This document shows positions 1-55,394 of a stretch of DNA of 64,000 nucleotides, piece after piece. Numbering within the stretch: the first letter of the stretch is position 1; every line of letters begins with the position of its first letter. Made by a program: the position numbers and the translations under genes. The notes below the pieces were generated by a model. The model was given only the letters and a program-made list of their open reading frames with translations, made no database searches and had not been told where the DNA came from. This DNA is from a virus (taxonomy: Duplodnaviria; Caudoviricetes), in IMG/VR virus record IMGVR_UViG_3300037418_002332; one strand, given 5' to 3'.

Positions 1-560
1 AATGATACTGTATCATCAACTTCAACACTTGCTACTCATGCTGCTGCTTCAATAACAGAAGCAGATGACACTTCATCTTCTGCATCAACTATTACATTAA
101 AAGCGAATGCGTCAATTACGGAAGCAAATGATACTGTTTCGTCAACTTCTGCAATTGCTATCAAAGCAGCTTCAACAGTAACTGAAGCAAATGATACTGT
201 ATCTGCTATAGTACAGTTGACACCTATTGCTGGTGTTGCTTCAATAACAGAAGCTGATGACTCTGTTAGTTCAACTTCAACGAATTTGACTCATGGTAAT
301 GCTTCTATAACGGAAGCAGGTGATACGTCAACTTCAGCATCAACTCTCTCTTTGAAATCTGTTGCTACAATAACAGAAGCAGATGATACTGTTTCGTCAA
401 CTTCTGCAATTGCTATCAAAGCAGTTTCAACAGTAACTGAAGCAAATGACACTATCGTTTCCGCCTCTGCAATTGCTATCAAAGCCAATGCTTCCGTAAC
501 AGAAGCTAACGATACTATTTCGTCTACCAGCACACTTGTAATCAAAGCAACATCAGCGTC
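1..560 (+). repeat. Coding tandem repeat block, 63-nt/21-aa period (about 9 units)
   Basis: Recurring ACNGAAGCAAATGATACT-type units encoding TEA(N/D)DT. Confidence 0.85.
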
Positions 561-3500
561 AGTTATCTCTCAAACTGATGACTCTCAGAGTGTTGGTATA
601 GGTCGAGATACTTCAACTCAATCTATAAATCAAACAATAATTCCGCCAGCGAACATCAATCTTAACTCGATTACGCTTGAAATTTCTAAAATTGTTGCAC
701 CAACAGATGATTGGTTTGTTGAGGTTCGTAGTGGCGACGGTGCCACATTAATCGCAACATCAAATGCGTTTAATGCATCTAGTATAGTTTCAGGTTTCAA
801 CACATTTACATTTGCTTCACCAGTAGCGCTGACCGGTGGAACCACTTATATGCTTAGATTGAGAAGAACTACACTTAACTTCTCAAATTACTTGATTGTG
901 TGGTATTCATACCCGTCACTATATCCATATGGTGAAGCATACATCTATGATGGTTCAAATTATAATTTGCTAGATGGCGACTTGTATTTCAAGTTGAACA
1001 CAGTTGGTGTAATCATTGAATCGAATGATACTGTTTCGTCAACAACAACCATTGCGATCAAAGGTTCGGCCTCGAACACAGAAGCAGGAGACACGGTATC
1101 ATCAACCGCAAAACTGCTAATCTATGCCAATCTCAGCAAAGGTTACTATCAAACCAATTCTGGCGATTTAAATTTTAACTGGTCTGGTGGTTCGGCGGTA
1201 TCTGGTGACAAATCTATCATGCTTGCTGCGGCGTGGGAAGATACTGTTGGCTATCCATGGATTTCGACAGATCGTGGTAATTCGTGGACAGAATTGAATA
1301 GCAATGGTCTGCCTTCTGCTAATTATCAGCAGGGTAGTGTGGCGTCATCTTATGACGGCAACCTGCTTGTCGCAGTTGCCAATAACAGCGACGTTTATAT
1401 TTCCACTAATCGTGGCGTAACATGGACATTATCTGTTTCGTATACTTCTGTAACTGGTCTAGAGATATCCGCTGATGGCAGTACGATTTATGTCTCGCCT
1501 AATAGTGGTGTGTATGTCTCAACTAATAGTGGAGCAACATGGAACGCTGGAACAGGAATTTCCGGTGCCTTCCGTGGTGTTTCCTGCTCTAGCAATGGTG
1601 TAATCGCTTACGTTTATTCCGGCACTCAACTGTGGAAAACTATAGATTCGGGTGCGACATGGACACAAAATACTACGATTGACGCACTTGTTGATGCAAA
1701 CTCTCTTGTCTGCTCTGATGATGGCTTGTTTGTTGGGGTAATCGATGAACCTTCATGGCCAAATGCAAACTACAATCGTTCATTTGATGGTGGTGTAACG
1801 TGGACTACATCCTCTCCATTTTCTCATGGATTTAAGATTGGTGCGTCACAAGACGGCTCAATTCAGTATGCTCTTGGTGCTATTGGCGCTGATCCTGCTA
1901 CACTAATAACATCAATCGATTATGGTGTAACGTGGACTGGCGTTGGCACTCCTATTGGCAACATCACCAATTATCAAATGTCAGTTTCGGCCGATGGCCG
2001 TTTTATGTTCTTTTTGAATGATGATGATTGGACATTCTATGCTTATGATCTTGTCAGTCCAATTACAGAAGCCGACGATACCGTATCATCAACATCTGTA
2101 CTTGCAATCAAGGCAACAACAGATAGTGTAACTGGTGCTGTCAATGTATTGCTTGCTAATGATAACGGCTTTAGTTGGGTATATCCATTAGTTTCTGGTG
2201 ATGGATCAGTATTCATGGTGATGGCAAGTTCTGCACCATGGGCATCTTATGATCGAGGTGCAACTTGGGCTGCACTGACTGGCGCACCAAATCTACAATG
2301 GAATGTTGGTGGATCGTCATATGACGGTAATGTGATTATCGGTGGTGCATGGGCATCAACAACTCACCTGTACAAATCTACCGATAAAGGCGCTACGTGG
2401 ACAGGCATCCCAGCTACGCTGACCAATGCATCGCATGGTGGTACATGGTCTGCAATCGGAGTTTCAGGTGATGGCAATGTGATTGTTGCTGGTGAAGCTG
2501 GCACAACCAACATCATCTTGTCCAATAATGGCGGCACGTCTTGGACACAAAAGACTGGATTTGGCGGCGATTCTACTTGGAAGGGTAACGATTTTGCGCT
2601 GTCAAACGATGGTTCTATCATTTATGCAACTTTCCTAAAAGGTGATATCACCACTGGAAAGTTATATAAGTCTACAGACTCAGGAGCAACGTGGAGCGAA
2701 CTGACTTCTGCTGGAACACATGCGTGGGCGGAAGTTGCGTGTTCATCAAATGGATCTTACGTAACAGTTACAGCTTATGGTAGCCTAGCATACCGTTCAT
2801 CTGACGGCGGTTCTACTTGGACGCAAATTACTGATGCAGCAACAAATGTGTATGGTGTTGCTGTATCGTCAGATGGTTCAATTCAGTACATTTCTGCAAA
2901 TGACAGCGTAATTCGTTCTACAAATTTCGGTGCAACTTGGACACAGGAAACTGGTACTGATACACCATACAATGACTACATCGCTGCGACTGCAGATGGT
3001 AGTGCATCTTTGTGGATCAACTACGACACCTATTATCTTGAAGGTTTCCAACAAATATCCACTCATCTTGTCGAACAGGATGACACAATCAGCTCAACTG
3101 CTGTGTTGATCAATGGTGTTACAGCAAATGCTTCTATTACAGAAGCTAATGATACTATATCATCTGTTGCCCATAATCCAATTGTTGGTCTTGTTTCTAA
3201 TAGTGAAGCAAGTGACTCAGTTAGTTCAACTGCAACAATTCAAATCAAAGCTGTTGTAACTATCACAGAAGCAAATGACACTGCTGGTTCAGCATCTGTT
3301 CTACCAATCAAGGGCGCAGAATCAAACGCGGAAGCTGATGATACAATTTCATCAACTGCAATTCTGTTGCTTAAAGCTGCATCTACAGTAACTGAAGCGA
3401 ACGATACTTCTACATCAACCGCAGTCATCACCATAAAAGCAAATGCTTCAAATACAGAAGCAAATGATAGCATTTCTTCAACTTCTGTTCTTCCGAACAA

Positions 3501-4710
3501 GGCTGCGAGTGCTGTAACGGAAACTGATGATAGCATTTCTTCAACTTCTGTGTTGCCGATCAAAGCGGTTGCGATCGTTACAGAAGCTGATGATATAGAA
3601 TCATCAGTTGCTCATAATCCAATTGTTGGTACAGCTTCTGATACGGAAGCAGATGATGCTATATCATTTACTGGTGTTCTTCCGATTAAAGCTACTTCAG
3701 GAGTCACTGAGGCAAATGATACTGTAAGTTCAACAAGTACAATTTTGATTAAAGCAGCTGCTTCTATCACTGAAGCGAACGATAGTATTGCATCAACTGC
3801 AATCCTGCCAATTCTAGCTGTTTCAAACAATACTGAAGCAAACGATAGCATTTCTTCAACAAGTTCTGCTCCTGTATTAGCTGTATTGAATTCTGTTGAA
3901 GCGAACGATAGCGTCAACTTCGCTTCAGTGATTACTTTGAAGGCAAATGCTTCAATTACTGAAGAAGATGATAGTCTAAGTGCTTCCGCAGTTAAATTCA
4001 ATCCTGGTGAAGCAGTTGCAAATATAACTGAAGATGATGATACAGTCAATTCAACTTCATTTATTACTTTGAAAGGCGCATTGGCTGTCACTGAATTAAG
4101 TGATACGTCAAGTTCAACTGCAACTTTGAAGATTGTTGCTGCTTCCGCAAATTCAGAAGCAAGTGACACCATTTCATCCACTTCTGCTTTGTTGGTTAAA
4201 GCAAATGCATCAAATGCGGAAGCAAATGATTCAGTAGCATCTACCTCAATTGTTCAAATTAGAGCAGCGGCAAGTATTACTGAAGCAAGTGATATTGTTT
4301 CAAGTGATACTCAATCAAGTATATTTGCCACAGTCAACGTTATTGAAGATGACGATATTGCTTCAATTTCTTCAAGATTGTCAATCAATTCATCAGCTGA
4401 TCTATTTGAAGATGACGATATCGTAAGTTCTACTGCAAATGTTGATGTTGTAGCTGGTGAAACTACTGTTGAAGATGACGACATCATCTTGGCAATAGGT
4501 GAATTGGTCATTCAGGCTGTTTCCGAAAATGTTGATGATGACGATACAATCGCTTCAATTGGAAAACTTTTGATTCTAGCAACTTCTGATATCATTGAAG
4601 AAAATGATCATGTAGATGCGCAAAATCAAAGATTTGGAACTTGGATTACAGCAGAAACATCCAAAAATCCAAAGACTGTTAAAACACTATACTATGCTGA
4701 CATATTGTAA
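1..4710 (+). CDS. Large Ser/Thr/Ala-rich putative virion/surface protein (5' truncated): 21-aa repeats, one beta-sandwich domain and two BNR/Asp-box beta-propeller regions
   Basis: Frame is open from base 1 (NDTVSSTS...), so the start lies outside the window. About 35 repeats of (I/V)TEAxDTxSST; many SxDxGxTW Asp-box motifs; ends just before the prohead genes. Confidence 0.75.
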   Translation, partial: NDTVSSTSTLATHAAASITEADDTSSSASTITLKANASITEANDTVSSTSAIAIKAASTVTEANDTVSAIVQLTPIAGVASITEADDSVSSTSTNLTHGNASITEAGDTSTSASTLSLKSVATITEADDTVSSTSAIAIKAVSTVTEANDTIVSASAIAIKANASVTEANDTISSTSTLVIKATSASVISQTDDSQSVGIGRDTSTQSINQTIIPPANINLNSITLEISKIVAPTDDWFVEVRSGDGATLIATSNAFNASSIVSGFNTFTFASPVALTGGTTYMLRLRRTTLNFSNYLIVWYSYPSLYPYGEAYIYDGSNYNLLDGDLYFKLNTVGVIIESNDTVSSTTTIAIKGSASNTEAGDTVSSTAKLLIYANLSKGYYQTNSGDLNFNWSGGSAVSGDKSIMLAAAWEDTVGYPWISTDRGNSWTELNSNGLPSANYQQGSVASSYDGNLLVAVANNSDVYISTNRGVTWTLSVSYTSVTGLEISADGSTIYVSPNSGVYVSTNSGATWNAGTGISGAFRGVSCSSNGVIAYVYSGTQLWKTIDSGATWTQNTTIDALVDANSLVCSDDGLFVGVIDEPSWPNANYNRSFDGGVTWTTSSPFSHGFKIGASQDGSIQYALGAIGADPATLITSIDYGVTWTGVGTPIGNITNYQMSVSADGRFMFFLNDDDWTFYAYDLVSPITEADDTVSSTSVLAIKATTDSVTGAVNVLLANDNGFSWVYPLVSGDGSVFMVMASSAPWASYDRGATWAALTGAPNLQWNVGGSSYDGNVIIGGAWASTTHLYKSTDKGATWTGIPATLTNASHGGTWSAIGVSGDGNVIVAGEAGTTNIILSNNGGTSWTQKTGFGGDSTWKGNDFALSNDGSIIYATFLKGDITTGKLYKSTDSGATWSELTSAGTHAWAEVACSSNGSYVTVTAYGSLAYRSSDGGSTWTQITDAATNVYGVAVSSDGSIQYISANDSVIRSTNFGATWTQETGTDTPYNDYIAATADGSASLWINYDTYYLEGFQQISTHLVEQDDTISSTAVLINGVTANASITEANDTISSVAHNPIVGLVSNSEASDSVSSTATIQIKAVVTITEANDTAGSASVLPIKGAESNAEADDTISSTAILLLKAASTVTEANDTSTSTAVITIKANASNTEANDSISSTSVLPNKAASAVTETDDSISSTSVLPIKAVAIVTEADDIESSVAHNPIVGTASDTEADDAISFTGVLPIKATSGVTEANDTVSSTSTILIKAAASITEANDSIASTAILPILAVSNNTEANDSISSTSSAPVLAVLNSVEANDSVNFASVITLKANASITEEDDSLSASAVKFNPGEAVANITEDDDTVNSTSFITLKGALAVTELSDTSSSTATLKIVAASANSEASDTISSTSALLVKANASNAEANDSVASTSIVQIRAAASITEASDIVSSDTQSSIFATVNVIEDDDIASISSRLSINSSADLFEDDDIVSSTANVDVVAGETTVEDDDIILAIGELVIQAVSENVDDDDTIASIGKLLILATSDIIEENDHVDAQNQRFGTWITAETSKNPKTVKTLYYADIL
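3067..4620 (+). repeat. Coding tandem repeat block, 63-nt/21-aa period (about 25 units)
   Basis: Units from LVEQDDTISST to IIEENDHVD counted in the translation. Confidence 0.85.
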
Positions 4711-7497: not shown

Positions 7498-7505
7498 TAT
7501 AAATA
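7498..7505 (+). promoter_or_regulatory. T4-type late promoter TATAAATA
   Basis: Exact consensus upstream of gp23. Confidence 0.85.
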
Positions 7506-7535: not shown

Positions 7536-8891
7536 ATGAATAATGAACTTGAAAAGCTTTTGGAAAAGTGGAACCCAGTTCTCGACCTTGATGGTCTTCC
7601 AAAAATTGCTGATTACCATAAAAGAGCAACTACAGCAGTTCTGCTTGAAAACCAAGCAGTTGCTAACAAAGAAACAGTTCGTAGAGAACCATCCCTTTCT
7701 TTGACTTACTTGATGGAAGCTGCTCCAACAAACAGCATGGGTACTTCAGAAGCAGGTACTGGTAACATCGATTACCAAGACCCAATCTTGATCTCCCTTG
7801 TTCGTCGTTCAATGCCTAACTTGATGGCATATGACGTTTGCGGCGTTCAACCAATGACTGGCCCAACCGGCTTGATCTTTGCTCTTAGATCACGTTACTC
7901 AGCTCAAGATGGTATCGAAGCTTTGTTCAACGAAGCTAACACCACTTTCGCTGCATCTGCTGCAGGTAACACTGCTTCAGTAACTGCTGCTGGTTTGCAC
8001 ACCGGTGCTGATCCTTCCCTTCTTATCTCATCAGGTAATACTGCTTACTTGACTGGTAGAGGTATGTCAACTGCTGCTCTTGAAGCACTTGGCGATAAGT
8101 CAACCAACGCTTTCCAAGAAATGTCAATGAGTCTTGAAAAGATCGCCGTTACTGCGGAAGCAAGAGGCGTCAAGGCTGAATATACCCATGAACTTTCACA
8201 AGACTTGAAGGCAACTCACGGTCTTGATGCTGAAAGCGAATTGGCTAACATCCTTTCAAAGGAAATCTTGGCTGAAATCAACCGTCAAGTTATTCGTTCT
8301 ATCTATACAACTGCTACCATTGGTGCACAACAAGGCGGTCTTGCGCAAGCTGGTTACTTCGACCTTGATGTTGACTCAAACGGTCGTTGGATGGAAGAAA
8401 AGTTCAAAGGCTTGATGTATCAAATCGAAAGAGAATGTAACGCTATTGCGCAAGCAACTCGTCAAGGTCGTGGTAACTTCATTATCACTTCTTCAGACGT
8501 TGCATCCGCTCTTTCAATGATCGGTATCTTGAAGTCAACTGATGGTCCTGACCTTCAAGTTGATGACACTGGTAACGTTTTTGCAGGTACCATCCTTGGT
8601 AAGATTAAGGTCTTCATCGACCCTTACTTCACCTCAAACGCTGGTAACAACTTCATCGCCGTCGGTTACAAGGGTTCATCACCTTTCGACGCTGGTATGT
8701 TCTACTGCCCATACGTTCCTTTGACCATGTACAGAACTCAAGGTCAAGATAACTTCCAACCAAAGATTGGTTTCAAAACCAGATACGCTCTCGCAGCGCA
8801 TCCTTTTGCTACCACCGCTGCGGATGGTAAAGTTCATGTTAACAAGAAGAACAAGTACTACAGATTGTTCGCTGTTAAGAACCTTACATAA
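7536..8891 (+). CDS. gp23: Major capsid protein
   Basis: LVRRSMPNLMAYDVCGVQPMTGPTGLIFALR, LAEINRQVIR, FYCPYVPL and KIGFKTRY motifs. Confidence 0.99.
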   Translation: MNNELEKLLEKWNPVLDLDGLPKIADYHKRATTAVLLENQAVANKETVRREPSLSLTYLMEAAPTNSMGTSEAGTGNIDYQDPILISLVRRSMPNLMAYDVCGVQPMTGPTGLIFALRSRYSAQDGIEALFNEANTTFAASAAGNTASVTAAGLHTGADPSLLISSGNTAYLTGRGMSTAALEALGDKSTNAFQEMSMSLEKIAVTAEARGVKAEYTHELSQDLKATHGLDAESELANILSKEILAEINRQVIRSIYTTATIGAQQGGLAQAGYFDLDVDSNGRWMEEKFKGLMYQIERECNAIAQATRQGRGNFIITSSDVASALSMIGILKSTDGPDLQVDDTGNVFAGTILGKIKVFIDPYFTSNAGNNFIAVGYKGSSPFDAGMFYCPYVPLTMYRTQGQDNFQPKIGFKTRYALAAHPFATTAADGKVHVNKKNKYYRLFAVKNLT

Positions 8892-46773: not shown

Positions 46774-46991
46774 TGTTTCAAATGAATGAAAAACTACCAC
46801 CTGAAATGTGGTTGCAAATTTTAGTTGCATATGTTGAAGAGAACTATAAAGAACACTTTGATACATGGGAAATTTTCACCAGAAATTATGCCAACATGGA
46901 AATTTGGCAAGAAGCATACGACGCGGACATTGAGCCTGAAGATGCTTGGGAAGACGAAATGAGTTATTGGACAGTAGGAGAAAACAGTTGA
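46770..46991 (+). CDS. Small acidic hypothetical protein
   Basis: ATGA overlap with primase. Confidence 0.6.
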   Translation: MMFQMNEKLPPEMWLQILVAYVEENYKEHFDTWEIFTRNYANMEIWQEAYDADIEPEDAWEDEMSYWTVGENS

Positions 46992-47383
46992 GCGATACAG
47001 AAATTGTAGAAGGAAATTTGGAACAAGGTAATTTTGATGTGACAGAATTCAAATCAGCATTAGCTAATGGTTCGATAAATTCAGCTTTATTTCAATTCAA
47101 TTTTGATAATGAGTCAACAATGCCGAACATTCCATATTTGGCATTCAAGTATAAATTGTCCCAATCCAAGTTGAAAATTTGGTTTTATGAAACTGAAGAT
47201 GGTATTTGGATTGACGGTGAAAATACTAAACTGATTAAATTGAGTGTTTTCAAGGCTGATGGCACCAAAGCATATACAATTTCACTTGATGTTGAATTTG
47301 CGAAAGCTTCAACCAAAGGAAGTTGGGCAACTGGAAATAAGATTAAAGAATATAAGTTTACATACAGGGTATTGTCCAATTGA
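46988..47383 (+). CDS. Hypothetical protein
   Basis: ORF in operon; TTG start estimated. Confidence 0.55.
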   Translation: MSDTEIVEGNLEQGNFDVTEFKSALANGSINSALFQFNFDNESTMPNIPYLAFKYKLSQSKLKIWFYETEDGIWIDGENTKLIKLSVFKADGTKAYTISLDVEFAKASTKGSWATGNKIKEYKFTYRVLSN

Positions 47384-48237
47384 TTAGTGCTAAAATAATT
47401 CTCGGTTCTGAGTATAACGGAAAACGCATCACAACCTTTGAATTGACATATCCACGTTTCATTCATGCTGAATTCATGACACATCGTGTATTCAGCCGAA
47501 ATGCTGCCTCATCAAGAGCAATTCCGGTTCTTAAGATGTTGAAGATGATTTGGAATGATATGGCTATGCCTATCCATTGGGGTGCTAACCAATCAGGCAT
47601 GCAGGCAAAGCAAGAACTTTCTCCAATGAGAAAGTGGTTCGTTCGAAAAATTTGGCGCGGTGCAGGACGAACTGCTTTGGCTGCTGCTTGGTTAATGAAT
47701 AAGTTTGGTGCGCATAAGCAAATTGTTAATCGTATAGTTGAACCATGGTCACATATCACTGTTATCATGACTACAACTGAACTTGATAATTGGTTTGAAC
47801 TTCGTGATCATCCTGATGCCCAACCTGAAATTCATGAACTCGCAAAACAAATGCGCGAAGCAGTTCGAACATATTACTATGATAAGCTCAAGGCTGATGA
47901 ATGGCATTTGCCATATGTTAAAGACTATGAAAAAGCAAAGTATTCATTGTTAAAATGTATTCAAGTGTCGGTTGCGCGTTGTGCACGTGTGTCATATCTG
48001 ACTCATGATGGTCAATTGTCTTTGTTTGAAAAGGATGTTCAACTTTACGAACGTCTAGTTGGATCAGTTCCACTTCATGCATCACCAGCTGAACATCAAG
48101 CTGCTCCTGTGTTGAATGCAGGTGAGAAGAAATATCAAGGTAACTTTTTTGGCTGGAAACAGTTTAGAAAAATTCTTGAAGAAAAGATGGCAGGCGGTAA
48201 TTCAACCCTTGTTCAAACGACGTTCGCCTATAAATAG
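47380..48237 (+). CDS. thyX: FAD-dependent thymidylate synthase
   Basis: THRVFSRNAASSRAIP, AQPEI, CARVSY and HASPAEH motifs. Confidence 0.92.
   Translation: MISAKIILGSEYNGKRITTFELTYPRFIHAEFMTHRVFSRNAASSRAIPVLKMLKMIWNDMAMPIHWGANQSGMQAKQELSPMRKWFVRKIWRGAGRTALAAAWLMNKFGAHKQIVNRIVEPWSHITVIMTTTELDNWFELRDHPDAQPEIHELAKQMREAVRTYYYDKLKADEWHLPYVKDYEKAKYSLLKCIQVSVARCARVSYLTHDGQLSLFEKDVQLYERLVGSVPLHASPAEHQAAPVLNAGEKKYQGNFFGWKQFRKILEEKMAGGNSTLVQTTFAYK
48229..48236 (+). promoter_or_regulatory. Late promoter TATAAATA overlapping an NrdR-box-like sequence
   Basis: Exact late consensus inside CGCCTATAAATAGTGT, upstream of nrdA. Confidence 0.6.
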
Positions 48238-48290: not shown

Positions 48291-50588
48291 ATGTCCATAA
48301 CAATCAAGAAGCGCAGTGGCGCCGACGAAATTCTACAAATTGACAAAATCCATAAACAACTTGAATTTGCCTGCGAAGGCATTCACAATGTTTCCGTTTC
48401 AGAAATCGAGTTGAGATCGGAACTACAGTTCTACAACAACATGACGACTGAAGAAATTCAAGAAACGTTGATTAAGACAGCTGCGGATTTGATCACTGAA
48501 GAAACACCAAATTATCAATATGTTGCTTCACGTTTGATCAACTTCGATTTGAGGAAGAAAGTTTTCGGTGATACTGAACCAAAATCAATCTACGAAATCG
48601 TAAAAGCTGGTGTTGCAGCAGGGTTCTATGAACCTGGATTGCTAGACTGGTACACTGAATCCGAATGGGATTCTATGAATCGTATGTTGAGACATGAACG
48701 TGACTTCAACATTGTTTACGCTGGAATGGAACAATTCAGACGAAAGTATCTCGTCAAAAATAAAATCACCGACCAATACTATGAAACACCTCAAATGGTT
48801 TACATGTTGATCGCAGCAACAGCTTTCAATATGGAAGAAAAATCAAAAAGACTAAAGCTGATCAAGGAGTTTTATAATGCAGTTAGTAATTTCGACATTG
48901 GCTTGCCTACTGCTATTTTGGCTGGAGTTAGAACTCCTATTCGCCAGTTCTCCAATTGTACTCTTATTGACGTGGGCGATAGTCTTGATTCCATTAATGC
49001 AGCTGCATCATCTATCGTCAAATACGCTAGCAAGAGAGCTGGTATTGGTTTCAACGTTGGTCGTCTTCGTGCTATTGGGTCTCCTATTCGTAATGGAGAA
49101 GTCACCCACACCGGTGTTCTTCCCTTCATTAAGTATCTCACTGCTGCATTAAAATCATGTAATCAAGGTGGCATTCGTAATGCTTCCGCAACATGTAATT
49201 TCCCAATGTGGCACTATGAATATGAAGACTTGGTTGTTTTGAAGAATAACAAGGGTGTTGAAGAAGCACGTAATCGTTCAATTGACTATGTCATTCAAAT
49301 CAATCAAGTTCTACTACAAAGATTGATTGACGGCAAAGACATTACATTGTTCTCACCATCTGATGTTCCTGATTTGTATGAAGCATTTTTCAGATCAAAT
49401 GCTGAATTTGAATATCTTTACAACAAGTATGAAAAAGATAAATCAATTCGTCATCGTAAGATTTCCGCATTGGAAGCTTTCAGCCAATTGATCCTTGAGC
49501 GTAAGGAAACAGGTCGTATCTATATTCAATTTGTTGATAATACCAATGAACATGGTGCATATGATAGTTCAAAGCAAATCATTACCATGACTAACCTTTG
49601 TGTTGAAATCACTCCAATCACCAAGCCTCTTGATGATGTGAATGATCCAAATGGTATTGTTTCACTATGTACTTTGGCTTCATACAATTTGGGTAATGTA
49701 AAGACACCATCTGACTTTGAACGTATGTCTTCAATCTTGGTTCGCTTCCTTGATAACATTCTAACATATCAAGATTATTTGCTTCCAGCTGCGAAACATT
49801 CAACTGATCTTTACAGAAACATTGGTATTGGCTTGACCAACTTGGCATATTTCCTTGCTAAGCATAACCAAAAATATACTGATGAATCAACTACTGAGTT
49901 TCTTGCTCCGTTCTTTGAAGCATACTCATATTACACGATCAAAGCTTCAATGGAATTGGCTAAGGAACGCGGTGCTTGCTTGGGCATCGATGATACCAAA
50001 TGGAAGCAAGGGTTGACTCCGGTTGATACATACCGCAAAACTCTTGACGAATACACCAAAAACGATTTACTTCTTGATTGGAATCAGCTAAAAAGTGATT
50101 TGAAAGAGTTTGGTGTTCGTAATGCTAATCTCATGGCACAAATGCCTAATGAGACCAATTCTCAGGTCATTAACTCAACCAACGGCATTGAACCACCGCG
50201 TTCACTAGTTTCCGTTAAGAGTTCCAAGGATGGTGCTCTTAAGCAGGTCGTGCCTGAAATTTCAAGATTGAAGAAGCGATATGAACTTCTTTGGGATCAA
50301 AAGTCTCCCGAAGGATATCTGAAAATCTGCGGTCTTTTGACTAAGTTCATTGATCAAAGTATTTCAACAAACACTTCTTACAATCCTGAGTTCTATGAAG
50401 ACAAAATCATTCCTATGTCAGTGTTGATCAAGGATTTAATTACTGCCTATCGTATGGGTATCAAGACCTTGTACTATCACCAAGAAAATGACATGGCTGG
50501 TGAAATTGAAATCAAAGCTGAAGTTCCAATCTTTGTTGAATCAACTGATTCGTTGGAAGATGAGTTCTGCGAAAGTTGTGCCATTTAA
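48291..50588 (+). CDS. nrdA: Class Ia ribonucleotide reductase alpha subunit with ATP cone
   Basis: KKRSG ATP cone; RQFSNC, TNLCVEI, LCTL, KTLYY and C-terminal CESC. Confidence 0.97.
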   Translation: MSITIKKRSGADEILQIDKIHKQLEFACEGIHNVSVSEIELRSELQFYNNMTTEEIQETLIKTAADLITEETPNYQYVASRLINFDLRKKVFGDTEPKSIYEIVKAGVAAGFYEPGLLDWYTESEWDSMNRMLRHERDFNIVYAGMEQFRRKYLVKNKITDQYYETPQMVYMLIAATAFNMEEKSKRLKLIKEFYNAVSNFDIGLPTAILAGVRTPIRQFSNCTLIDVGDSLDSINAAASSIVKYASKRAGIGFNVGRLRAIGSPIRNGEVTHTGVLPFIKYLTAALKSCNQGGIRNASATCNFPMWHYEYEDLVVLKNNKGVEEARNRSIDYVIQINQVLLQRLIDGKDITLFSPSDVPDLYEAFFRSNAEFEYLYNKYEKDKSIRHRKISALEAFSQLILERKETGRIYIQFVDNTNEHGAYDSSKQIITMTNLCVEITPITKPLDDVNDPNGIVSLCTLASYNLGNVKTPSDFERMSSILVRFLDNILTYQDYLLPAAKHSTDLYRNIGIGLTNLAYFLAKHNQKYTDESTTEFLAPFFEAYSYYTIKASMELAKERGACLGIDDTKWKQGLTPVDTYRKTLDEYTKNDLLLDWNQLKSDLKEFGVRNANLMAQMPNETNSQVINSTNGIEPPRSLVSVKSSKDGALKQVVPEISRLKKRYELLWDQKSPEGYLKICGLLTKFIDQSISTNTSYNPEFYEDKIIPMSVLIKDLITAYRMGIKTLYYHQENDMAGEIEIKAEVPIFVESTDSLEDEFCESCAI

Positions 50589-50956
50589 TGAACAATTTCG
50601 ATAAAACCCAATTGACATTGCAAATGCTCGAAAAATTTGATCGGGCAATTGCTTTGGGTGGTAAACATGTTGCCACTGAATATTTGTATTCAGGATTGGG
50701 AACCCATAATCGTGATGGCACGTTAACTAAGGAATATGGTGGTCAAAGAACAGATGATGATCACCCTGTTCATTCTAAAAAGGTAGAACCACCTGCTGCG
50801 AAAATTTCAAATCCAATTTTCACTGTTGAAATAGAACTTGAATTGGTTCAAGATTTGAAAGCAATAAGCCATCTAAATTGGAAAGATGAATTAGCAAAGG
50901 TTCTTGGTACTGAACTGGTGGTACAATACGAAGAATGGGAAAGAAACAATCCTTAA
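50588..50956 (+). CDS. Hypothetical protein
   Basis: TAATG coupling to nrdA. Confidence 0.6.
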   Translation: MNNFDKTQLTLQMLEKFDRAIALGGKHVATEYLYSGLGTHNRDGTLTKEYGGQRTDDDHPVHSKKVEPPAAKISNPIFTVEIELELVQDLKAISHLNWKDELAKVLGTELVVQYEEWERNNP

Positions 50957-50967
50957 GAGGTACAATT

Positions 50968-51123
50968 ATGCCTACAATCTATTTGGGTGTTTTTGGACTG
51001 GCAATCTCAATTTTTCTCGCAGTGATGAGAAATACTGATGTGAATGAGGAAAATAAAGATGGACAAAAAAGCGACGGCGATAACGCTGAGAGCGATCGCA
51101 GCGATGGCGGAAAAGCTGGCTGA
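50968..51123 (+). CDS. Possible small membrane protein
   Basis: GAGG RBS and one TM segment; overlaps the next ORF. Confidence 0.35.
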   Translation: MPTIYLGVFGLAISIFLAVMRNTDVNEENKDGQKSDGDNAESDRSDGGKAG

Positions 51124-51226
51124 CGATCTTACTGGCAATCGTTTGTGGGAAGGCGAATTCAATGAGGCTGCATCACAAATCAAAAAGTATGCAGCCTCAT
51201 TGCCAGATGAAAAAGGAAGATGGTAA
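51059..51226 (+). CDS. Small hypothetical protein
   Basis: Amphipathic 55-aa ORF coupled to the next gene. Confidence 0.45.
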   Translation: MDKKATAITLRAIAAMAEKLADDLTGNRLWEGEFNEAASQIKKYAASLPDEKGRW

Positions 51227-51774
51227 TGAAACTTTATACAGCACCCGATGACATTTCGGAAACAAGAAAAATCAAGGGAAACTATGATTTCAAAGTTTTT
51301 CTTGGTGGCTCGATTGAAATGGGAAAGGCTGTTGATTGGCAAAATGAAGTGGTTGATTACTTCAAGCACCAAGACCGCTTAGTGCTCTTCAATCCTCGTC
51401 GTCCTGATTGGGACTCAACTTGGAAGCAAGACCCAACTCCCGGAACTCCATTTCATGAACAGGTGAATTGGGAACTTGATGCTCTCAATGATTCAGATTA
51501 TGTTTTGTTCTATTTTGATCCAAACACCGTCAGTCCTATCACTTTGTTGGAATTGGGCATCTATTCACAACACAAAGATAAAGTTATCGTGGTCGTTTGT
51601 CCTCCCGATTATTTCAGGTATGGAAATGTTAAGATCGTTTGTAATCGTGAACGACTCATCCACTTTACGTCATTGAAGCCTGCCTTGGAATGGCTTGGCA
51701 CCGATATTCATGACGTTATCGCTTTGTCTGATCCAGACTATGAAGAAAAACAATTGAAGCCTTTGGAGAAATAA
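51220..51774 (+). CDS. Nucleoside 2-deoxyribosyltransferase-like protein
   Basis: VFLGGSIE, DWQ, FNPRR, QVNWEL and SPITLLELG motifs. Confidence 0.85.
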   Translation: MVMKLYTAPDDISETRKIKGNYDFKVFLGGSIEMGKAVDWQNEVVDYFKHQDRLVLFNPRRPDWDSTWKQDPTPGTPFHEQVNWELDALNDSDYVLFYFDPNTVSPITLLELGIYSQHKDKVIVVVCPPDYFRYGNVKIVCNRERLIHFTSLKPALEWLGTDIHDVIALSDPDYEEKQLKPLEK

Positions 51775-52889
51775 TGGAAATCAATGTTGACTACACCAAG
51801 AGAAAAATGTTTCTCAATGGTGACGTTTCAATCGCTCGTTATGATCAATTGAAATATCCAATGCTTGACACATTGGTCAAGCGTCAAAGAAGCTTCTTCT
51901 GGCAACCTGAAGAAATTCAAGATATTGGTCGTGATAAATCCGACTTCAATCTTCTTCAACCTCATGAAAAGCACATTTTCGTTTCAAACCTTTTGAGACA
52001 AACGCTTTTGGATTCAATCCAAGGTCGAGCTCCTTCTGAAGTTTTCACTCCAATCACCTCAGTTCCTGAGGCTGAAATTTGGACGCAAACTTGGGCTTTC
52101 TCTGAAACAATCCATTCATATTCATACACTTACATTGTCAGAAATATTTTTGCCAATCCAAGTGAAGTGTTTGACAAAATGCCGTCCATTCAAGAAGTTG
52201 TAGATTGCGGTGTTGATATTTCCAAATTTTATGATGAATTAGCAATTTACAATAAATTGGTTGATATTTATGGCTATGATGCAGATGTTGGCCATCACGA
52301 AATAACTCTCGATCCATTGAATGAGTATGAGCATAAGAAACGTCTTTGGAAGTGTTTGATGTCAGTTAACATTCTTGAAGGCATCCGTTTCTATGTTTCA
52401 TTTGCTTGCTCATGGGCTTTTGCCGAACGTAAGACTATGGAAGGCAATGCAAAAATCATTAAGTTGATTGCGCGTGATGAAAATCTTCATCTGGCTTCAA
52501 CACAATACATGCTTCGTGAATTGAAGAAAGAAGATGCTGACTTTGCACAAATTGCAGAAGAAACTGAATCTGAATGTATTCAAATGTTCAATGAAGCTAT
52601 TCGACAAGAAAAGGAATGGGCTGATTATCTGTTCAAAGATGGATCGATGATCGGGTTGAATGCAAACATTCTCAAGCAATACGTGGACTATATAGCAAAA
52701 CAAAGAATGAAGGCTGTTGACCTACCTTGTGAACTAGAAGTGAAAACCAACCCACTTCCATGGACAAATAAATGGATCGGTGGTAAGGAAGTACAAAATG
52801 CACCACAGGAAGTTAATATCACCAGTTATCAAGTTGGTGCTATTAAATCAGATCTTGATTCTGATTCCTTGAAAGGTTTCAAACTTTAA
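51774..52889 (+). CDS. nrdB: Class Ia ribonucleotide reductase beta subunit
   Basis: FFWQPEEI, LLDSIQGR, ETIHSYSY, LEGIRFYVSF, IARDENLH and APQE motifs. Confidence 0.97.
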   Translation: MEINVDYTKRKMFLNGDVSIARYDQLKYPMLDTLVKRQRSFFWQPEEIQDIGRDKSDFNLLQPHEKHIFVSNLLRQTLLDSIQGRAPSEVFTPITSVPEAEIWTQTWAFSETIHSYSYTYIVRNIFANPSEVFDKMPSIQEVVDCGVDISKFYDELAIYNKLVDIYGYDADVGHHEITLDPLNEYEHKKRLWKCLMSVNILEGIRFYVSFACSWAFAERKTMEGNAKIIKLIARDENLHLASTQYMLRELKKEDADFAQIAEETESECIQMFNEAIRQEKEWADYLFKDGSMIGLNANILKQYVDYIAKQRMKAVDLPCELEVKTNPLPWTNKWIGGKEVQNAPQEVNITSYQVGAIKSDLDSDSLKGFKL

Positions 52890-53116
52890 TGCCAACTGCA
52901 AATACAGTTTTAAATATCAAGCAATATTTTGATGTAGAAAATTATGAACCAACTGTTATCTATGACAACAAAATCCATGTGGTCGGTAGATTAAAAAGAA
53001 CTTACAATGATGTTGCATTTATCTATGCGCCATACATTCCATTGCAAATGGTTGGAGCACCAGCAAATACTGCAATAAAAACGGTTGGATTTAAAACGAG
53101 ATACGGCATTGTCTGA
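52889..53116 (+). CDS. Mini-protein containing a gp23 C-terminal fragment
   Basis: IYAPYIPLQM...VGFKTRY versus gp23 FYCPYVPLTM...IGFKTRY. Confidence 0.8.
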   Translation: MPTANTVLNIKQYFDVENYEPTVIYDNKIHVVGRLKRTYNDVAFIYAPYIPLQMVGAPANTAIKTVGFKTRYGIV

Positions 53117-53363
53117 GTGGCCAAAAGATACTATCTATGATCCACAAATACATGTTATCGGACGAATTGAACAAAATCAATATGATCCAGTTTTGCTTGG
53201 CATAGTCAGAAGAACGTGGCCAACGTTGCTTGCTAATTCAATTATTGGATCGCAAAATATGATGAATCCTTCAGGACAAGTATTTTCACTGAGATCAAAA
53301 TACAGTGGAGCAACTTCAAATACCCAAACAGTTATAATAAAGGACGAAATAGATGGCGAGTGA
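53109..53363 (+). CDS. Mini-protein containing a gp23 N-proximal (Gol-region) fragment
   Basis: DPVLLGIVRRTWPTLLANSIIGSQNMMNPSGQVFSLRSKYS is 20/41 identical to gp23; TTG start estimated. Confidence 0.8.
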   Translation: MSEWPKDTIYDPQIHVIGRIEQNQYDPVLLGIVRRTWPTLLANSIIGSQNMMNPSGQVFSLRSKYSGATSNTQTVIIKDEIDGE

Positions 53364-53529
53364 TTATTACAGCAGAGAACTTAGACAAAGAGCAATTGAA
53401 CTTGCAGTTATGGTAACACGAGATTCAACAACTGATATTAAAATTGTGTTGAGCGCTGCAAAAGAAATTGAAAAATACATCATGGATGGTGATGAAGAAA
53501 AAGCAAAGCTAGACCTACTAGAAGAGTAA
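53353..53529 (+). CDS. Small hypothetical protein (58 aa)
   Basis: Read by hand: MASDYYSRELRQRAIELAV...; fills the gap before the topoisomerase gene. Confidence 0.65.
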   Translation: MASDYYSRELRQRAIELAVMVTRDSTTDIKIVLSAAKEIEKYIMDGDEEKAKLDLLEE

Positions 53530-53531
53530 GC

Positions 53532-55394
53532 ATGACAGACGGAATTAAAAAACTTTCAGACTATGAGCACGTGAGATTGAGAACTGAGATGTATCTTGGT
53601 TCTCGTTCACCGCATACTCAAGAAATCATTTCCTACAATGAAGGTGTTCCAGTTCTAAAAGAATACACTTGGACACCAGCAGCATTCACAGCTTTCCGTG
53701 AAGTGTTGGACAACTCATTGGATGAAATAATCGGTCATGGTTTCGGCTCAAGAATCGATGTAGAGTACGATGAAGCTAATAAGATTTTTTCAGTGAAAGA
53801 TAATGGTCGTGGCATTCCAATCACATGGGATGACAAGGAAGAAATGCACAAGGCAACTTTGGTGTTGACTCATACTCGTGCAGGTCGTAACTTCGGTGAA
53901 CGGCAAGAAGTTGCTGGTACAAATGGTATTGGCGCGTCGGCTGTGAATTTTTGTTCAGAATTTTTTGAAGTCACAATCAATCGTGATAACACCAAGTTCG
54001 AACAAAAATTCGTTGAAGGTGAACATGAGTTGAAAATTGATCCGCCTAAGATGCGTGAAGTGAAAAGTGATGCATCAGGCACCGCAATTCGCTTTAAACT
54101 TTCATCAAAGGTGTTCAGTTCAATTCTACTTCCACTGGAATTCATACGTGATCGCCTTTATGAAGTTGCTGTATTCAATCCTCAGTTGACTGTTTACTTC
54201 AACAAGGAAAAGATCAAGGTTGGTGCGACGATTGAACGTTCCCTTTTCAACAAGGAAAAGGTGATCAAATTTGATATCAACGAAGATGGTTTCCGTTCAA
54301 CTTTCTTTGTCAAACCAAATTTCCAATTGAATTCATCTGAATATATGTTCTCGTTCGTGAACAACGTTCCAGCTTTCAATGGTGGAACTCATATGGATAC
54401 ATTTCGTCGTCAATTCATTTCAGGTGTTTTGGATGCTTTGACTCGCGAAGGCAAGAAACGTAAATTGACTCCAAATCGATCTGATGTCAATGAAGGTTTG
54501 TTGATTCTAAATCACACAAAGATGAGAGCGCCGAACTTCGACAGTCAGTCCAAAACTCGTTTGATTAACGAAGAACCTGCAAAGATCATCACAGCTGCAA
54601 TTGATGCTAAGGAAATCGCTAAGATGCTCCGTAAGCATGAAGATTGGGTTGAACAAATCTTTGAACGTTGCGCATTCCGTACAAACAAGCAAGACCAAAA
54701 GGATTTGGAAAAGGAATCAAAGAAGCTTTCACGTCGAAAAATTCCAAAACTTCGTGACGCAACCTCAAGTAATCGTCAAGATTGTATCTTGTTGCTAGCT
54801 GAGGGAGATTCAGCTATCTCCGGTTCAGCTGCGGTTCGCGATCCAAAAATCCATGCTGGATTGCCATTGCGCGGTAAAGTTCTAAACGTCAATGGTGAGT
54901 CACCAAAAACCGTCATTGACAATAAAGAACTGGCTGATATCATGTCTGCAATAGGCTTGGCCATCGGCAAAAAAGCAGTGAGAGATGATTTGCGATATGG
55001 TAGAATTTATTTGGCCCATGACGCTGATCCTGACGGTGCAAACATCGGTGCTTTATTGGTGAATTTTTTCCATACATTTTGGCCTGAACTATTTACCGAT
55101 GAAAAGAATCCATTTATAAGTGTATTCATGACTCCGTTCATCATTGCTCAAAAAGGCAAGGAACGTCGTTATTGGTATTCAGATAATTATGCTGAATTCA
55201 AGCCTGAAGATTATAAAGGCTGGTCAATCACCAGAGCCAAGGGTCTTGGTACTCTTGAAGAACCCGATTGGGAACATTCTCTGAAGTCACCAAAACTTTT
55301 CCATATAGTTGATGACGGTAAGATGAAAGAAGCTTTGGATTTGATTTTCAATGGTTCAAAGGCTGACGATCGGAAATTGTGGATGGGAATTTAG
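53532..55394 (+). CDS. gp39: Type II topoisomerase large subunit (gp39 plus gp60 fused)
   Basis: EVLDNSLDE, KDNGRGIP, GTNGIGAS; TOPRIM AEGDSA, PLRGKVLN and DADPDG. Confidence 0.96.
   Translation: MTDGIKKLSDYEHVRLRTEMYLGSRSPHTQEIISYNEGVPVLKEYTWTPAAFTAFREVLDNSLDEIIGHGFGSRIDVEYDEANKIFSVKDNGRGIPITWDDKEEMHKATLVLTHTRAGRNFGERQEVAGTNGIGASAVNFCSEFFEVTINRDNTKFEQKFVEGEHELKIDPPKMREVKSDASGTAIRFKLSSKVFSSILLPLEFIRDRLYEVAVFNPQLTVYFNKEKIKVGATIERSLFNKEKVIKFDINEDGFRSTFFVKPNFQLNSSEYMFSFVNNVPAFNGGTHMDTFRRQFISGVLDALTREGKKRKLTPNRSDVNEGLLILNHTKMRAPNFDSQSKTRLINEEPAKIITAAIDAKEIAKMLRKHEDWVEQIFERCAFRTNKQDQKDLEKESKKLSRRKIPKLRDATSSNRQDCILLLAEGDSAISGSAAVRDPKIHAGLPLRGKVLNVNGESPKTVIDNKELADIMSAIGLAIGKKAVRDDLRYGRIYLAHDADPDGANIGALLVNFFHTFWPELFTDEKNPFISVFMTPFIIAQKGKERRYWYSDNYAEFKPEDYKGWSITRAKGLGTLEEPDWEHSLKSPKLFHIVDDGKMKEALDLIFNGSKADDRKLWMGI

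What the first reader, a model, noticed from the sequence alone, without database searches (positions are those of the whole stretch)
53109..53363. Mini-gene carrying the Gol-peptide region of the phage's own major capsid protein
Seen: nt 53184-53306 encode DPVLLGIVRRTWPTLLANSIIGSQNMMNPSGQVFSLRSKYS, which aligns without gaps to gp23 nt 7779-7901 (DPILISLVRRSMPNLMAYDVCGVQPMTGPTGLIFALRSRYS) at 20/41 identity, with many conservative changes, 45 kb from gp23. Known: in T4 this segment is the Gol peptide (about residues 94-122) that binds EF-Tu and activates the Lit abortive-infection protease, and capsid proteins are triggers for defence sensors such as CapRel. Inference: an intact, conservatively diverged ORF in a replication-gene operon could be a capsid-epitope decoy or antagonist of a capsid-sensing defence, an EF-Tu binder, or a capsid assembly modulator or competitor-phage poison.
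Basis: partly seen in the sequence, partly recalled or inferred. Interest (0 to 1): 0.85.

Follow-up and report, generated by a model that had tools for sequence, protein, structure and literature searches.

The report
Mini-genes built from capsid-protein pieces
An uncultured soil T4-like phage carries three tiny genes among its nucleotide-metabolism and replication genes, each keeping one conserved block of the major capsid protein (one is the "Gol" block that binds EF-Tu in T4); they look maintained rather than decayed, similar capsid-piece mini-genes recur in other phages, and their function is untested.

Summary
ORF2 (53109-53363) matches the Gol region of the window's major capsid protein (MCP) at 20/42 identity, E 2e-13, and passes Pfam Gp23's cutoff.

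It is not alone. ORF1 (52889-53116) keeps the MCP C-terminal P-domain strands. A third ORF (50588-50956) keeps the spine-helix block more weakly. ORF1 and ORF2 share an N-terminal "handle" (IYDxxIHVxGR). All three are translationally coupled in the nrdA-nrdB-gene 39 operon, far from the late-promoter head module.

Synonymous sites are saturated, yet the frames are open. The segments fit a gp23 family profile far better than neutral drift allows (0/2000 and 2/2000 simulations).

ORF2 is no closer to its own MCP than to other gp23s. Its best match is another stand-alone mini-protein. It is also atypical in the near-invariant GVQPMTGPTG core.

Stand-alone Gol mini-proteins occur elsewhere, some with Tat-type leaders, foreign tails, or beside a sheath fragment. 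I found no paper describing them. This scan noted similar designs in other genomes.

No full-length orthologues, population variation or RNA data exist, so function is inferred. Fragment mimicry of unassembled MCP is my best guess (0.35). An inert remnant remains possible (0.25).

The parts
53109..53363 (+). ORF2, 84 aa from TTG 53109 (92 aa from TTG 53085): N-terminal handle plus Gol-type MCP segment plus 17-aa tail
   Evidence: The TTG start overlaps the ORF1 stop (TTGTCTGA). Codon log-odds is 0.04, between the gene and off-frame ranges. AF2 predicts one confident helix at residues 27-46.
53184..53309 (+). Gol-type segment of ORF2 (aa 26-67), homologous to MCP aa 82-123 and T4 gp23 ~92-133
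   Evidence: Scores 63.5-66.5 bits against a profile of 23 full-length gp23 proteins. Codon-position identity to the MCP is 0.48/0.69/0.31.
53124..53186 (+). Handle in ORF2 (aa 6-26, core IYDPQIHVIGR), ending in the YD junction to the Gol segment
52889..53116 (+). ORF1, 75 aa: handle plus MCP C-terminal P-domain strands (F.YAPY.PL ... GFKTRYG). Its ATG overlaps the nrdB stop (TAATG).
   Evidence: E 2e-6 to MCP aa 371-419; Pfam Gp23 30.3 bits, positions 301-349; codon log-odds 0.36
52949..53011 (+). Handle in ORF1 (aa 21-41, core IYDNKIHVVGR). It aligns to the MCP's own strand 'yvlvGYkGaseyD'.
   Evidence: (E 3e-5 ORF1 vs ORF2)
50588..50956 (+). Third mini-ORF, 122 aa. Its ATG overlaps the nrdA stop (TAATG). 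Its C-terminal part carries the MCP spine-helix block (EL.QDLKA...ELA..L..E) at nt 50840-50926.
   Evidence: Pfam Gp23 15.1 bits, below cutoff; own profile 15.4 bits; BLASTP E 7e-5, 13/29; codon log-odds 0.45. This is the weakest member.
53353..53529 (+). ORF3, 58 aa, acidic. Its ATG overlaps the ORF2 end and it has a good SD (AAGGA). It has no MCP similarity, so it is a coupled neighbour of uncertain membership.
   Evidence: (codon log-odds 0.51)
7536..8891 (+). Full-length major capsid protein (gp23 type, 451 aa), the family the blocks derive from. A late-promoter box TATAAATA lies at 7498-7505.
48291..55394 (+). Host operon: nrdA 48291-50588, nucleoside 2-deoxyribosyltransferase-like gene 51220-51774, nrdB 51774-52889, gene 39 topoisomerase subunit 53532-55394. 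No promoter- or terminator-like site lies between nrdB and gene 39.

Best explanation
Shown: ORF2, ORF1 and (more weakly) the ORF after nrdA are small same-strand ORFs, translationally coupled inside the nrdA-nrdB-gene 39 operon. Each keeps one conserved block of the gp23-type MCP. By the T4 structure papers all three blocks belong to the N-arm/P-domain part of the HK97 fold: the Gol/N-arm strand, the start of the spine helix, and the C-terminal beta-strands that include the site of the gp31-bypass mutation. ORF1 and ORF2 share a duplicated handle that itself derives from an MCP strand. Inferred: they are translated before the late MCP burst and act as fragment mimics. As mostly unfolded peptides with one amphipathic helix, they would occupy a partner that normally meets unassembled or nascent MCP. 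That partner would be a host factor already known to bind this part of gp23 (EF-Tu for Gol, GroEL for the N-terminal part) or a host sensor of conserved capsid blocks. Occupying it would pre-empt or damp that interaction. ORF2's altered GVQPMTGPTG core would fit a binder that no longer triggers what the true Gol triggers.
For: Homology of the blocks. Not neutral decay: third codon positions are saturated (0.31) while second positions keep 0.69, and 11 of 20 identical residues use other codons. Neutral drift of the MCP segment to the same identity gives a stop in 82% of runs and 13.7±7.3 profile bits (maximum 38.4) against 63.5 observed, 0/2000. For ORF1 the figures are 87% with stops and 2/2000. 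Gene-like packing: TAATG overlaps nrdA/mini and nrdB/ORF1, the ORF1 stop overlaps the ORF2 start, and the ORF2 end overlaps the ORF3 start. In-frame codon scores are 0.45 and 0.36, in the gene range. The blocks are not collinear with the MCP and are separated by nrdB and another enzyme gene. Recurrence of the design elsewhere: stand-alone Gol proteins with a Tat-type leader (P0007, TAT_signal 23.5 bits), with unrelated tails (P0009/10/21/38), or in a row with a sheath C-terminal fragment and an MCP C-terminal ORF beside dCMP deaminase (L008). Atlas clusters of short viral Gp23-domain proteins are a lead only. Known partners of this part of gp23 come from PMC3014915 (Gol-EF-Tu-Lit), PMC3012670 (N-terminus targets GroEL) and PMC9546572 (A455 in the P-domain sheet lies within the motif ORF1 keeps). 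Fragment-based inhibition is an established principle (PMC9245647). AF2 gives only one confident helix and no autonomous fold.
Against: There is no direct evidence of translation, binding or phenotype. No full-length orthologue exists in 5.8 billion (word-indexed) or 1.84 billion (exhaustive HMMER) proteins, so no dN/dS is possible. Contigs from 7 soil or rhizosphere runs are identical, so there is no population signal. ORF2 has only a TTG start with a weak SD and a borderline codon score of 0.04. It carries four residues seen in under 1% of the family in the most conserved core, which could equally be relaxed constraint. The drift simulation excludes old decay from the own MCP but not a younger fragment of a foreign gp23 with mild decay. 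The handle's codon-position pattern is not clearly purifying. The third member is below Pfam's cutoff. Free Gol peptide activates Lit in T4, so a mimic could be harmful unless it is non-activating.
Confidence: 0.35

Rival explanations
1. Inert remnants: pieces of a duplicated or imported gp23 gene that were scattered by rearrangement in the nrd region. They would survive only because the most conserved blocks stay recognisable longest and because short ORFs between coupled genes are tolerated.
For: No full-length orthologues. ORF2 has a TTG start, a borderline codon score and four aberrant core residues. ORF1's N-terminal part is roughly collinear with MCP ~345-419. The mini-ORFs are absent next to gene 39 in 7 related jumbo-phage loci.
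Against: All three frames are open with saturated synonymous sites. Profile fit is far above neutral drift. The stop/start overlaps are exact, twice TAATG. Two members have gene-range codon scores. The block order is not collinear with the MCP. The handle is duplicated and keeps a derived core (IYDxxIHVxGR) that is absent from MCPs. Independent analogues elsewhere are fused to non-MCP modules.
Confidence: 0.25
2. Exaptation without mimicry: these are real small proteins in which an MCP-derived helix or strand is merely reused as a structural element for an unrelated job, for example an accessory subunit or regulator of the neighbouring RNR or topoisomerase enzymes.
For: Each RNR gene is followed by a TAATG-coupled mini-ORF, which suggests stoichiometric co-expression with those enzymes. 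ORF2's core has moved away from the MCP consensus.
Against: It is hard to see why three different MCP blocks would be recruited independently. The other phages' Gol minis sit beside different genes (dCMP deaminase, gp59/gp32), so the neighbour is not conserved while the block is.
Confidence: 0.2
3. The target is a capsid protein itself. The fragments would bind folding or assembly intermediates of gp23-type MCPs, either timing the phage's own head assembly or acting as dominant-negative poisons of co-infecting related phages.
For: The blocks are the family's most conserved P-domain elements, the region that makes inter-capsomer contacts and governs folding (PMC9546572). Fragments of a protein commonly inhibit the parent's interactions (PMC9245647). 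The fragments are diverged from the phage's own MCP, which could spare self.
Against: The own MCP keeps all the conserved features, so self-poisoning is a problem. There is no evidence of binding. The ORF1-ORF2 complex prediction gave no verdict and is not used as evidence.
Confidence: 0.15
4. ORF1 and ORF2 are one gene read through a +1 frameshift (programmed, or a mutation or sequencing error), giving a single permuted capsid-like protein.
For: Both frames are open over 53079-53113, and the ORF1 stop lies inside the ORF2 start region.
Against: A virtual read-through does not extend collinearity with the MCP beyond TRYGIV (profile position 405). The GTC TGA G site is not a recognisable slippery site. 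Independent contigs from several runs show the same sequence with no indel.
Confidence: 0.03

Closest known systems
Gol region of T4 gp23 and the e14 Lit protease / EF-Tu exclusion system (PMC3014915)
   Same: ORF2 residues 26-67 are homologous to the segment containing the 29-residue Gol peptide. In T4 that peptide is active in isolation (it binds EF-Tu domains II/III), so a stand-alone Gol-type peptide is biochemically plausible.
   Different: In T4, Gol is part of the late capsid protein, not a separate gene. Free Gol turns a defence on, not off. ORF2 has S, N, M and N at four near-invariant core positions and carries an extra handle. No Lit homologue or host is known for this phage.
gp24 vertex protein of T4 (full-length paralogue of gp23; PDB 1YUE)
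   Same: It is an MCP-derived extra gene kept by a T4-like phage.
   Different: gp24 is a complete HK97-fold protein in the head module, made late and built into the capsid. The mini-ORFs hold 29-49-residue blocks, lie in the nrd/topoisomerase operon and cannot form the fold.
Dominant-negative or inhibitory protein fragments (engineered; PMC9245647, PMC11831152)
   Same: Short fragments of a protein that keep one interface can titrate the parent's partners. This is the working principle proposed here.
   Different: Those are laboratory constructs from E. coli proteins. Here the fragments are natural, diverged, phage-encoded genes.
Capsid-sensing defences such as CapRel (PMC9712102)
   Same: They show that conserved MCP features are what host immunity reads, which gives a rationale for phage-encoded capsid mimics.
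   Different: No phage-encoded capsid-fragment antagonist of such a sensor was found in the literature I searched, and no sensor is identified here.
Other capsid/portal/sheath-fragment mini-gene rows noted by this scan and seen here in L008, L010 and P0007-P0152 (unpublished)
   Same: They are small, coupled ORFs in non-structural regions. Each carries one conserved block of a virion protein, and some share an N-terminal module.
   Different: Here the handle is itself MCP-derived and unique to this phage. There is no Tat-type leader. Only two or three members fall in this window, and none has an orthologue.

Membership tests
Gp23 major capsid protein (Pfam PF07068, HK97 fold) | Sequence match above Pfam's gathering score | tested here: met
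   ORF2 scores 45.9 bits and ORF1 30.3 bits against a cutoff of 24.4. The 50588 ORF scores only 15.1 bits.
Gp23 major capsid protein (Pfam PF07068, HK97 fold) | One chain of ~400-520 aa containing the A domain, spine helix and P domain | tested here: not met
   The ORFs are 75-122 aa. Matches cover only profile positions 3-48, 301-349 and 153-183 of 376. AF2 gives one helix and pTM 0.33.
Gp23 major capsid protein (Pfam PF07068, HK97 fold) | Located in the head module behind a T4-type late promoter | tested here: not met
   TATAAATA boxes lie before genes 22 and 23 (6245, 7498), and none lies before the mini-ORFs. They sit between nrdA, nrdB and gene 39.
T4 Gol peptide (EF-Tu ligand, Lit activator) | Homology to the 29-residue Gol region of gp23 | tested here: met
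   ORF2 aa 26-67 aligns to MCP aa 82-123, which aligns to T4 gp23 ~92-133.
T4 Gol peptide (EF-Tu ligand, Lit activator) | Conservation of the ~20-residue functional core (13 residues important by scanning mutagenesis, per PMC3014915) | tested here: inconclusive
   The residue list (Copeland & Kleanthous 2005) is not held. ORF2 reads GSQNMMNPSG where 140 family members have GVQPMTGPTG, with four residues seen in under 1% of them. The flanks are conserved.
T4 Gol peptide (EF-Tu ligand, Lit activator) | Binds EF-Tu domains II/III and licenses Lit cleavage | not testable with these tools
   This needs biochemistry. The host and its EF-Tu are unknown (soil metagenome).
Handle-plus-conserved-block mini-protein arrays (this scan's unpublished class) | Adjacent small ORFs share an N-terminal module | tested here: met
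   ORF1 aa 16-41 matches ORF2 aa 1-26, E 3e-5, core IYDxxIHVxGR. The motif occurs only in these two ORFs in six-frame translation of the window. The 50588 ORF lacks it.
Handle-plus-conserved-block mini-protein arrays (this scan's unpublished class) | Tails copy different conserved blocks of virion proteins | tested here: met
   The Gol block, the C-terminal strands and the spine-helix block are each copied.
Handle-plus-conserved-block mini-protein arrays (this scan's unpublished class) | Design conserved in related phages under purifying selection | tested here: inconclusive
   There are no full-length orthologues and no variation. Only indirect evidence is available, from the drift simulations.
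Tat-leader capsid-fragment mini-proteins (e.g. P0007) | Twin-arginine leader before the capsid block | tested here: not met
   Pfam gives no TAT_signal hit for ORF1 or ORF2, whereas P0007 scores 23.5 bits.

The most novel reading that the evidence does not exclude
Large T4-like phages encode, in their pre-late operons, a repertoire of natural 'fragment mimics' of the most conserved, unmutable blocks of their own virion proteins. In this window that would be three P-domain blocks of the capsid protein. These peptides would bind, without activating, host immune sensors or host factors that read those blocks (Lit/EF-Tu-type or CapRel-type capsid sensing), blinding capsid-triggered abortive infection before the capsid protein appears.
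Probability: 0.15. Interest if true: 0.9.

Novelty: new variant of a known kind. Interest (0 to 1): 0.62.

Why it matters
Gol is the most conserved part of gp23 and is known to bind EF-Tu, yet why the phage keeps this interaction has been open since about 2000. Natural stand-alone genes for the Gol block, and for two other P-domain blocks, separate the block from the capsid fold. Anything that still constrains them must be an intermolecular partner, and that partner can be fished out directly. If they are antagonists of capsid-sensing immunity, they would be a new class of counter-defence based on self-fragment mimicry. If they tune gp23 folding or assembly, they reveal an unknown layer of head morphogenesis. 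If they prove to be inert, they are a well-documented example of how conserved blocks outlive gene decay.

Tried and rejected
(1) Complex prediction of ORF1+ORF2 gave no verdict (score 0.00, pLDDT ~30). I do not use it as evidence either way.
(2) RNA evidence: no RNA holder was listed.
(3) Read laying on four DNA runs: all phage contigs are identical to the window, with no SNPs or indels in the mini-ORFs. The few variant pieces are other organisms' nrdB. No pN/pS was possible.
(4) Searches for orthologues found only the window's own proteins or nothing: the search for homologous proteins three times, the search for related loci in viral and metagenome contigs, the look-up of encoding contigs for P0004, and megablast against phages.
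(5) tblastn against cultured phages finds only the MCP genes themselves, one place per record.
(6) My idea that ORF1+ORF2 is one frameshifted permuted gene is not supported by the profile alignment of a virtual read-through.
(7) P0006 (952 aa, 10 stretches) and P0133 are spurious repeat or low-complexity matches.
(9) The handle codon-position test (0.43/0.71/0.67) is inconclusive.
(10) Foldseek of the ORF2 model against PDB found no match.
(11) The Atlas search for the 50588 ORF gave no usable hit.
(12) The Copeland & Kleanthous 2005 paper is not held, so the 13 critical Gol residues could not be checked.
(13) Seven related jumbo-phage loci (L001-L007) have no capsid-like ORF near gene 39.

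Full report
OBSERVATION. Its frame is open from 53079, with TTG codons at 53085 and 53109 and a stop at 53361-53363. Residues 26-67 align without gaps to residues 82-123 of the 451-aa gp23-type major capsid protein (MCP) encoded at 7536-8891. The alignment has 20/42 identities and 30/42 positives, BLASTP E 2e-13. Pfam Gp23 (PF07068) scores 45.9 bits against a cutoff of 24.4, at profile positions 3-48. PHROG 138 "major head protein" gives E 1.8e-12. Through the MCP the segment maps to T4 gp23 ~92-133, which contains the 29-residue Gol region (PMC3014915).

WHAT ELSE IS THERE. The ORF immediately upstream is ORF1 (52889-53116, 75 aa). It matches the MCP C-terminal part, aa 371-419, with motifs F.YAPY.PL and GFKTRYG. 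BLASTP gives E 2e-6, and Pfam Gp23 gives 30.3 bits at positions 301-349.

ORF1 aa 16-41 and ORF2 aa 1-26 share a motif with core IYDxxIHVxGR (E 3e-5). In a six-frame scan of the window this motif occurs only in these two ORFs. A profile built from 23 full-length gp23 proteins aligns ORF1's copy of the motif to the MCP's own strand "yvlvGYkGaseyD". ORF2 therefore looks like that strand joined, at a YD dipeptide present before both MCP segments, directly to the Gol segment.

Following a lead from an unchecked note on an overlapping window, I tested the ORF after nrdA (50588-50956, 122 aa). It carries the MCP spine-helix block. BLASTP gives 13/29 identities and E 7e-5. My profile gives 15.4 bits, and Pfam gives 15.1 bits, which is below its cutoff. 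This is the weakest member. The same note's "gp19-like" ORF at 46946 found no support.

CONTEXT. All three mini-ORFs lie on the + strand inside a tight run. The order is nrdA (48291-50588), the 50588 ORF, a nucleoside 2-deoxyribosyltransferase-like gene, nrdB (51774-52889), ORF1, ORF2, a 58-aa acidic ORF3, gene 39 (53532-55394), and later gene 52.

Both RNR genes end in TAATG, where the ATG starts a mini-ORF. The ORF1 stop overlaps ORF2's TTG start, and ORF2's end overlaps ORF3's ATG. No promoter-like or terminator-like site separates nrdB from gene 39. T4-type late boxes (TATAAATA) stand in front of genes 22 and 23. A third box stands 55 nt before nrdA. None lies before the mini-ORFs.

The phage is an uncultured soil or rhizosphere T4-like phage. 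The database records its mini-proteins on contigs up to 250,291 bp long. Its nearest MCP is Ochrobactrum phage vB_OspM_OC at 62.6%. Its nearest gene 39 products are those of Phosso and Atu_ph07, at about 57%.

DECAY OR SELECTION. Between ORF2's Gol segment and the MCP, nucleotide identity by codon position is 0.48/0.69/0.31. Third positions are therefore saturated while second positions are kept, and 11 of 20 identical residues use different codons.

I simulated neutral drift of the MCP segment down to the same amino-acid identity. In 82% of runs a stop codon appears. The drifted segments score 13.7±7.3 bits against the family profile, with a maximum of 38.4. ORF2 scores 63.5 bits, and 0 of 2000 simulations reach that. 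For ORF1, 87% of runs contain a stop and 2 of 2000 reach the observed score.

In-frame codon log-odds are 0.45 for the 50588 ORF and 0.36 for ORF1. Both fall in the range of real genes (mean 0.53, sd 0.17). ORF2 scores 0.04, which is borderline and lies between the gene range and the off-frame range (mean -0.60).

These tests have limits. The simulations reject old neutral decay from the phage's own MCP. They do not reject a younger fragment of a foreign gp23 that has decayed only mildly. The codon-position pattern of the handle (0.43/0.71/0.67) is inconclusive.

ORF2 is also odd exactly where the family is invariant. It reads GSQNMMNPSG where 140 family members have GVQPMTGPTG, and four of its residues there are seen in under 1% of members. 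This could reflect relaxed constraint or a changed specificity.

ORIGIN. ORF2's Gol segment is not closer to its own MCP (20/42) than to gp23 proteins in general (mean 20.7, maximum 23). Its best match is a stand-alone mini-protein, P0009 (25/42). P0009 shares ORF2's W and S residues, which are absent from all 94 genuine MCP sequences examined. ORF1's block is likewise closer to the C-terminal block of a mini-ORF in another phage (46%) than to its own MCP (33%).

RECURRENCE. I found no full-length orthologue of any of the three mini-ORFs, and no cultured phage shows a second Gp23 locus. However, the exhaustive HMMER search returned many complete stand-alone proteins built on the Gol block. They fall into several designs:
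- Tat-type leader plus Gol. P0007 scores 23.5 bits for TAT_signal, above the cutoff, and lies in a gp59/gp32 region. P0100, P0115, P0124 and P0152 are similar.
- Gol followed by an unrelated "RLNNRRKTQ..AGY" tail: P0009, P0010, P0021 and P0038.
- A short lead, Gol and a short tail: P0015, P0022, P0072, P0093, P0104 and P0113.

In locus L008/L009, beside dCMP deaminase, three overlapping small ORFs stand in a row. The first carries a tail-sheath C-terminal piece (phrog_10581, E 4e-4). The second carries the Gol block (P0113). The third is a 190-aa ORF equal to the C-terminal ~175 aa of jumbo-phage MCPs. That is the same two MCP parts as in this window. The Atlas lists clusters of short viral Gp23-domain proteins, which I treat as a lead only.

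This scan has noted similar designs in at least eight other genomes. Those notes are unchecked AI notes. I used them as leads and tested what I could. My literature searches found no description of such genes.

STRUCTURE AND KNOWN BIOLOGY. In T4 gp23, aa 66-105 form the N-arm, which is disordered before expansion, and the I-domain linker starts at aa 132. [quoted passage not shown] By the alignment, A455 falls within the YAPYV(A/P)L motif that ORF1 keeps. The three blocks are therefore the conserved N-arm/P-domain elements.

The isolated Gol peptide binds EF-Tu domains II/III and licenses the Lit protease (PMC3014915). The gp23 N-terminus targets fusion proteins to GroEL (PMC3012670). AlphaFold2 with a 40-sequence alignment gives ORF2 one confident amphipathic helix (residues 27-46, pLDDT about 90), no fold for the handle, and pTM 0.33. 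That is what one expects of a fragment that needs a partner.

INTERPRETATION. I put the probability that these are real, maintained small genes at about 0.7. My best mechanistic guess (0.35) is fragment mimicry. Under this reading the peptides are made before the late MCP burst. They occupy a host factor or host sensor that normally meets unassembled gp23, such as EF-Tu, GroEL or a capsid-sensing defence. ORF2's altered core would fit a non-activating binder.

The rivals are inert remnants (0.25), exaptation for an unrelated function such as RNR or topoisomerase accessory roles (0.20), action on MCP assembly of self or of competing phages (0.15), and a single frameshifted gene (0.03).

NOVELTY AND SCORE. 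The blocks belong to a known family, and the Gol peptide's activity in isolation is known. Natural stand-alone, operon-embedded genes for these blocks were not described in anything I could search. I rate this a new variant of a known kind. Interest is 0.62. The anatomy is real and surprising and makes an old question testable. Function is unproven, this instance has no orthologues, and the scan has already met the design elsewhere.

Noticed in passing
L008:3637-4709 (ENA ERZ28593774 scaffold_417; also L009): Beside a dCMP deaminase gene, three overlapping small ORFs stand in a row, each made of a piece of a structural protein: a tail-sheath C-terminal piece (100 aa, phrog_10581 E 4e-4), the MCP Gol block (81 aa, P0113), and an MCP C-terminal ~175-aa ORF (190 aa).
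   Followed up: partly
L010:75-335 (P0007); also P0100, P0115, P0124, P0152: Mini-proteins that join a twin-arginine (Tat-type) leader (Pfam TAT_signal 23.5 bits for P0007) to the Gol block. P0007 lies in a gp59/gp32 replication region of a T4-like contig.
   Followed up: partly
P0009, P0010, P0021, P0038 (L013, L014): A family with the Gol block at the very N-terminus, followed by an unrelated tail with an 'RLNNRRKTQ...AGY' motif. P0009 is the closest known relative of ORF2's Gol segment (25/42) and lies in a row of tiny overlapping ORFs.
   Followed up: partly
window 48229-48236: A T4-type late-promoter box (TATAAATA) lies 55 nt upstream of nrdA. The only other two copies in the window stand before head genes 22 and 23. 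It could mean late as well as early transcription of the nrd operon, or it could be chance (about 2 copies are expected).
   Followed up: no
window 53353-53529: ORF3 is a 58-aa acidic helical ORF with a good SD and a gene-like codon score. It is translationally coupled to ORF2 and stands directly before gene 39. It matches no family.
   Followed up: partly
window 1-4710: A giant + strand ORF (over 1569 aa, running off the window start) lies upstream of the head genes and has internal repeats. Its antisense shadow ORFs are similar to one another.
   Followed up: no
window 51220-51774: A nucleoside 2-deoxyribosyltransferase-like gene (PF15891, 107 bits) lies between the nrdA-coupled mini-ORF and nrdB.
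   Followed up: no
window 47380-48237: A ThyX-type (Thy1, PF02511) thymidylate synthase-like gene lies just upstream of nrdA.
   Followed up: no
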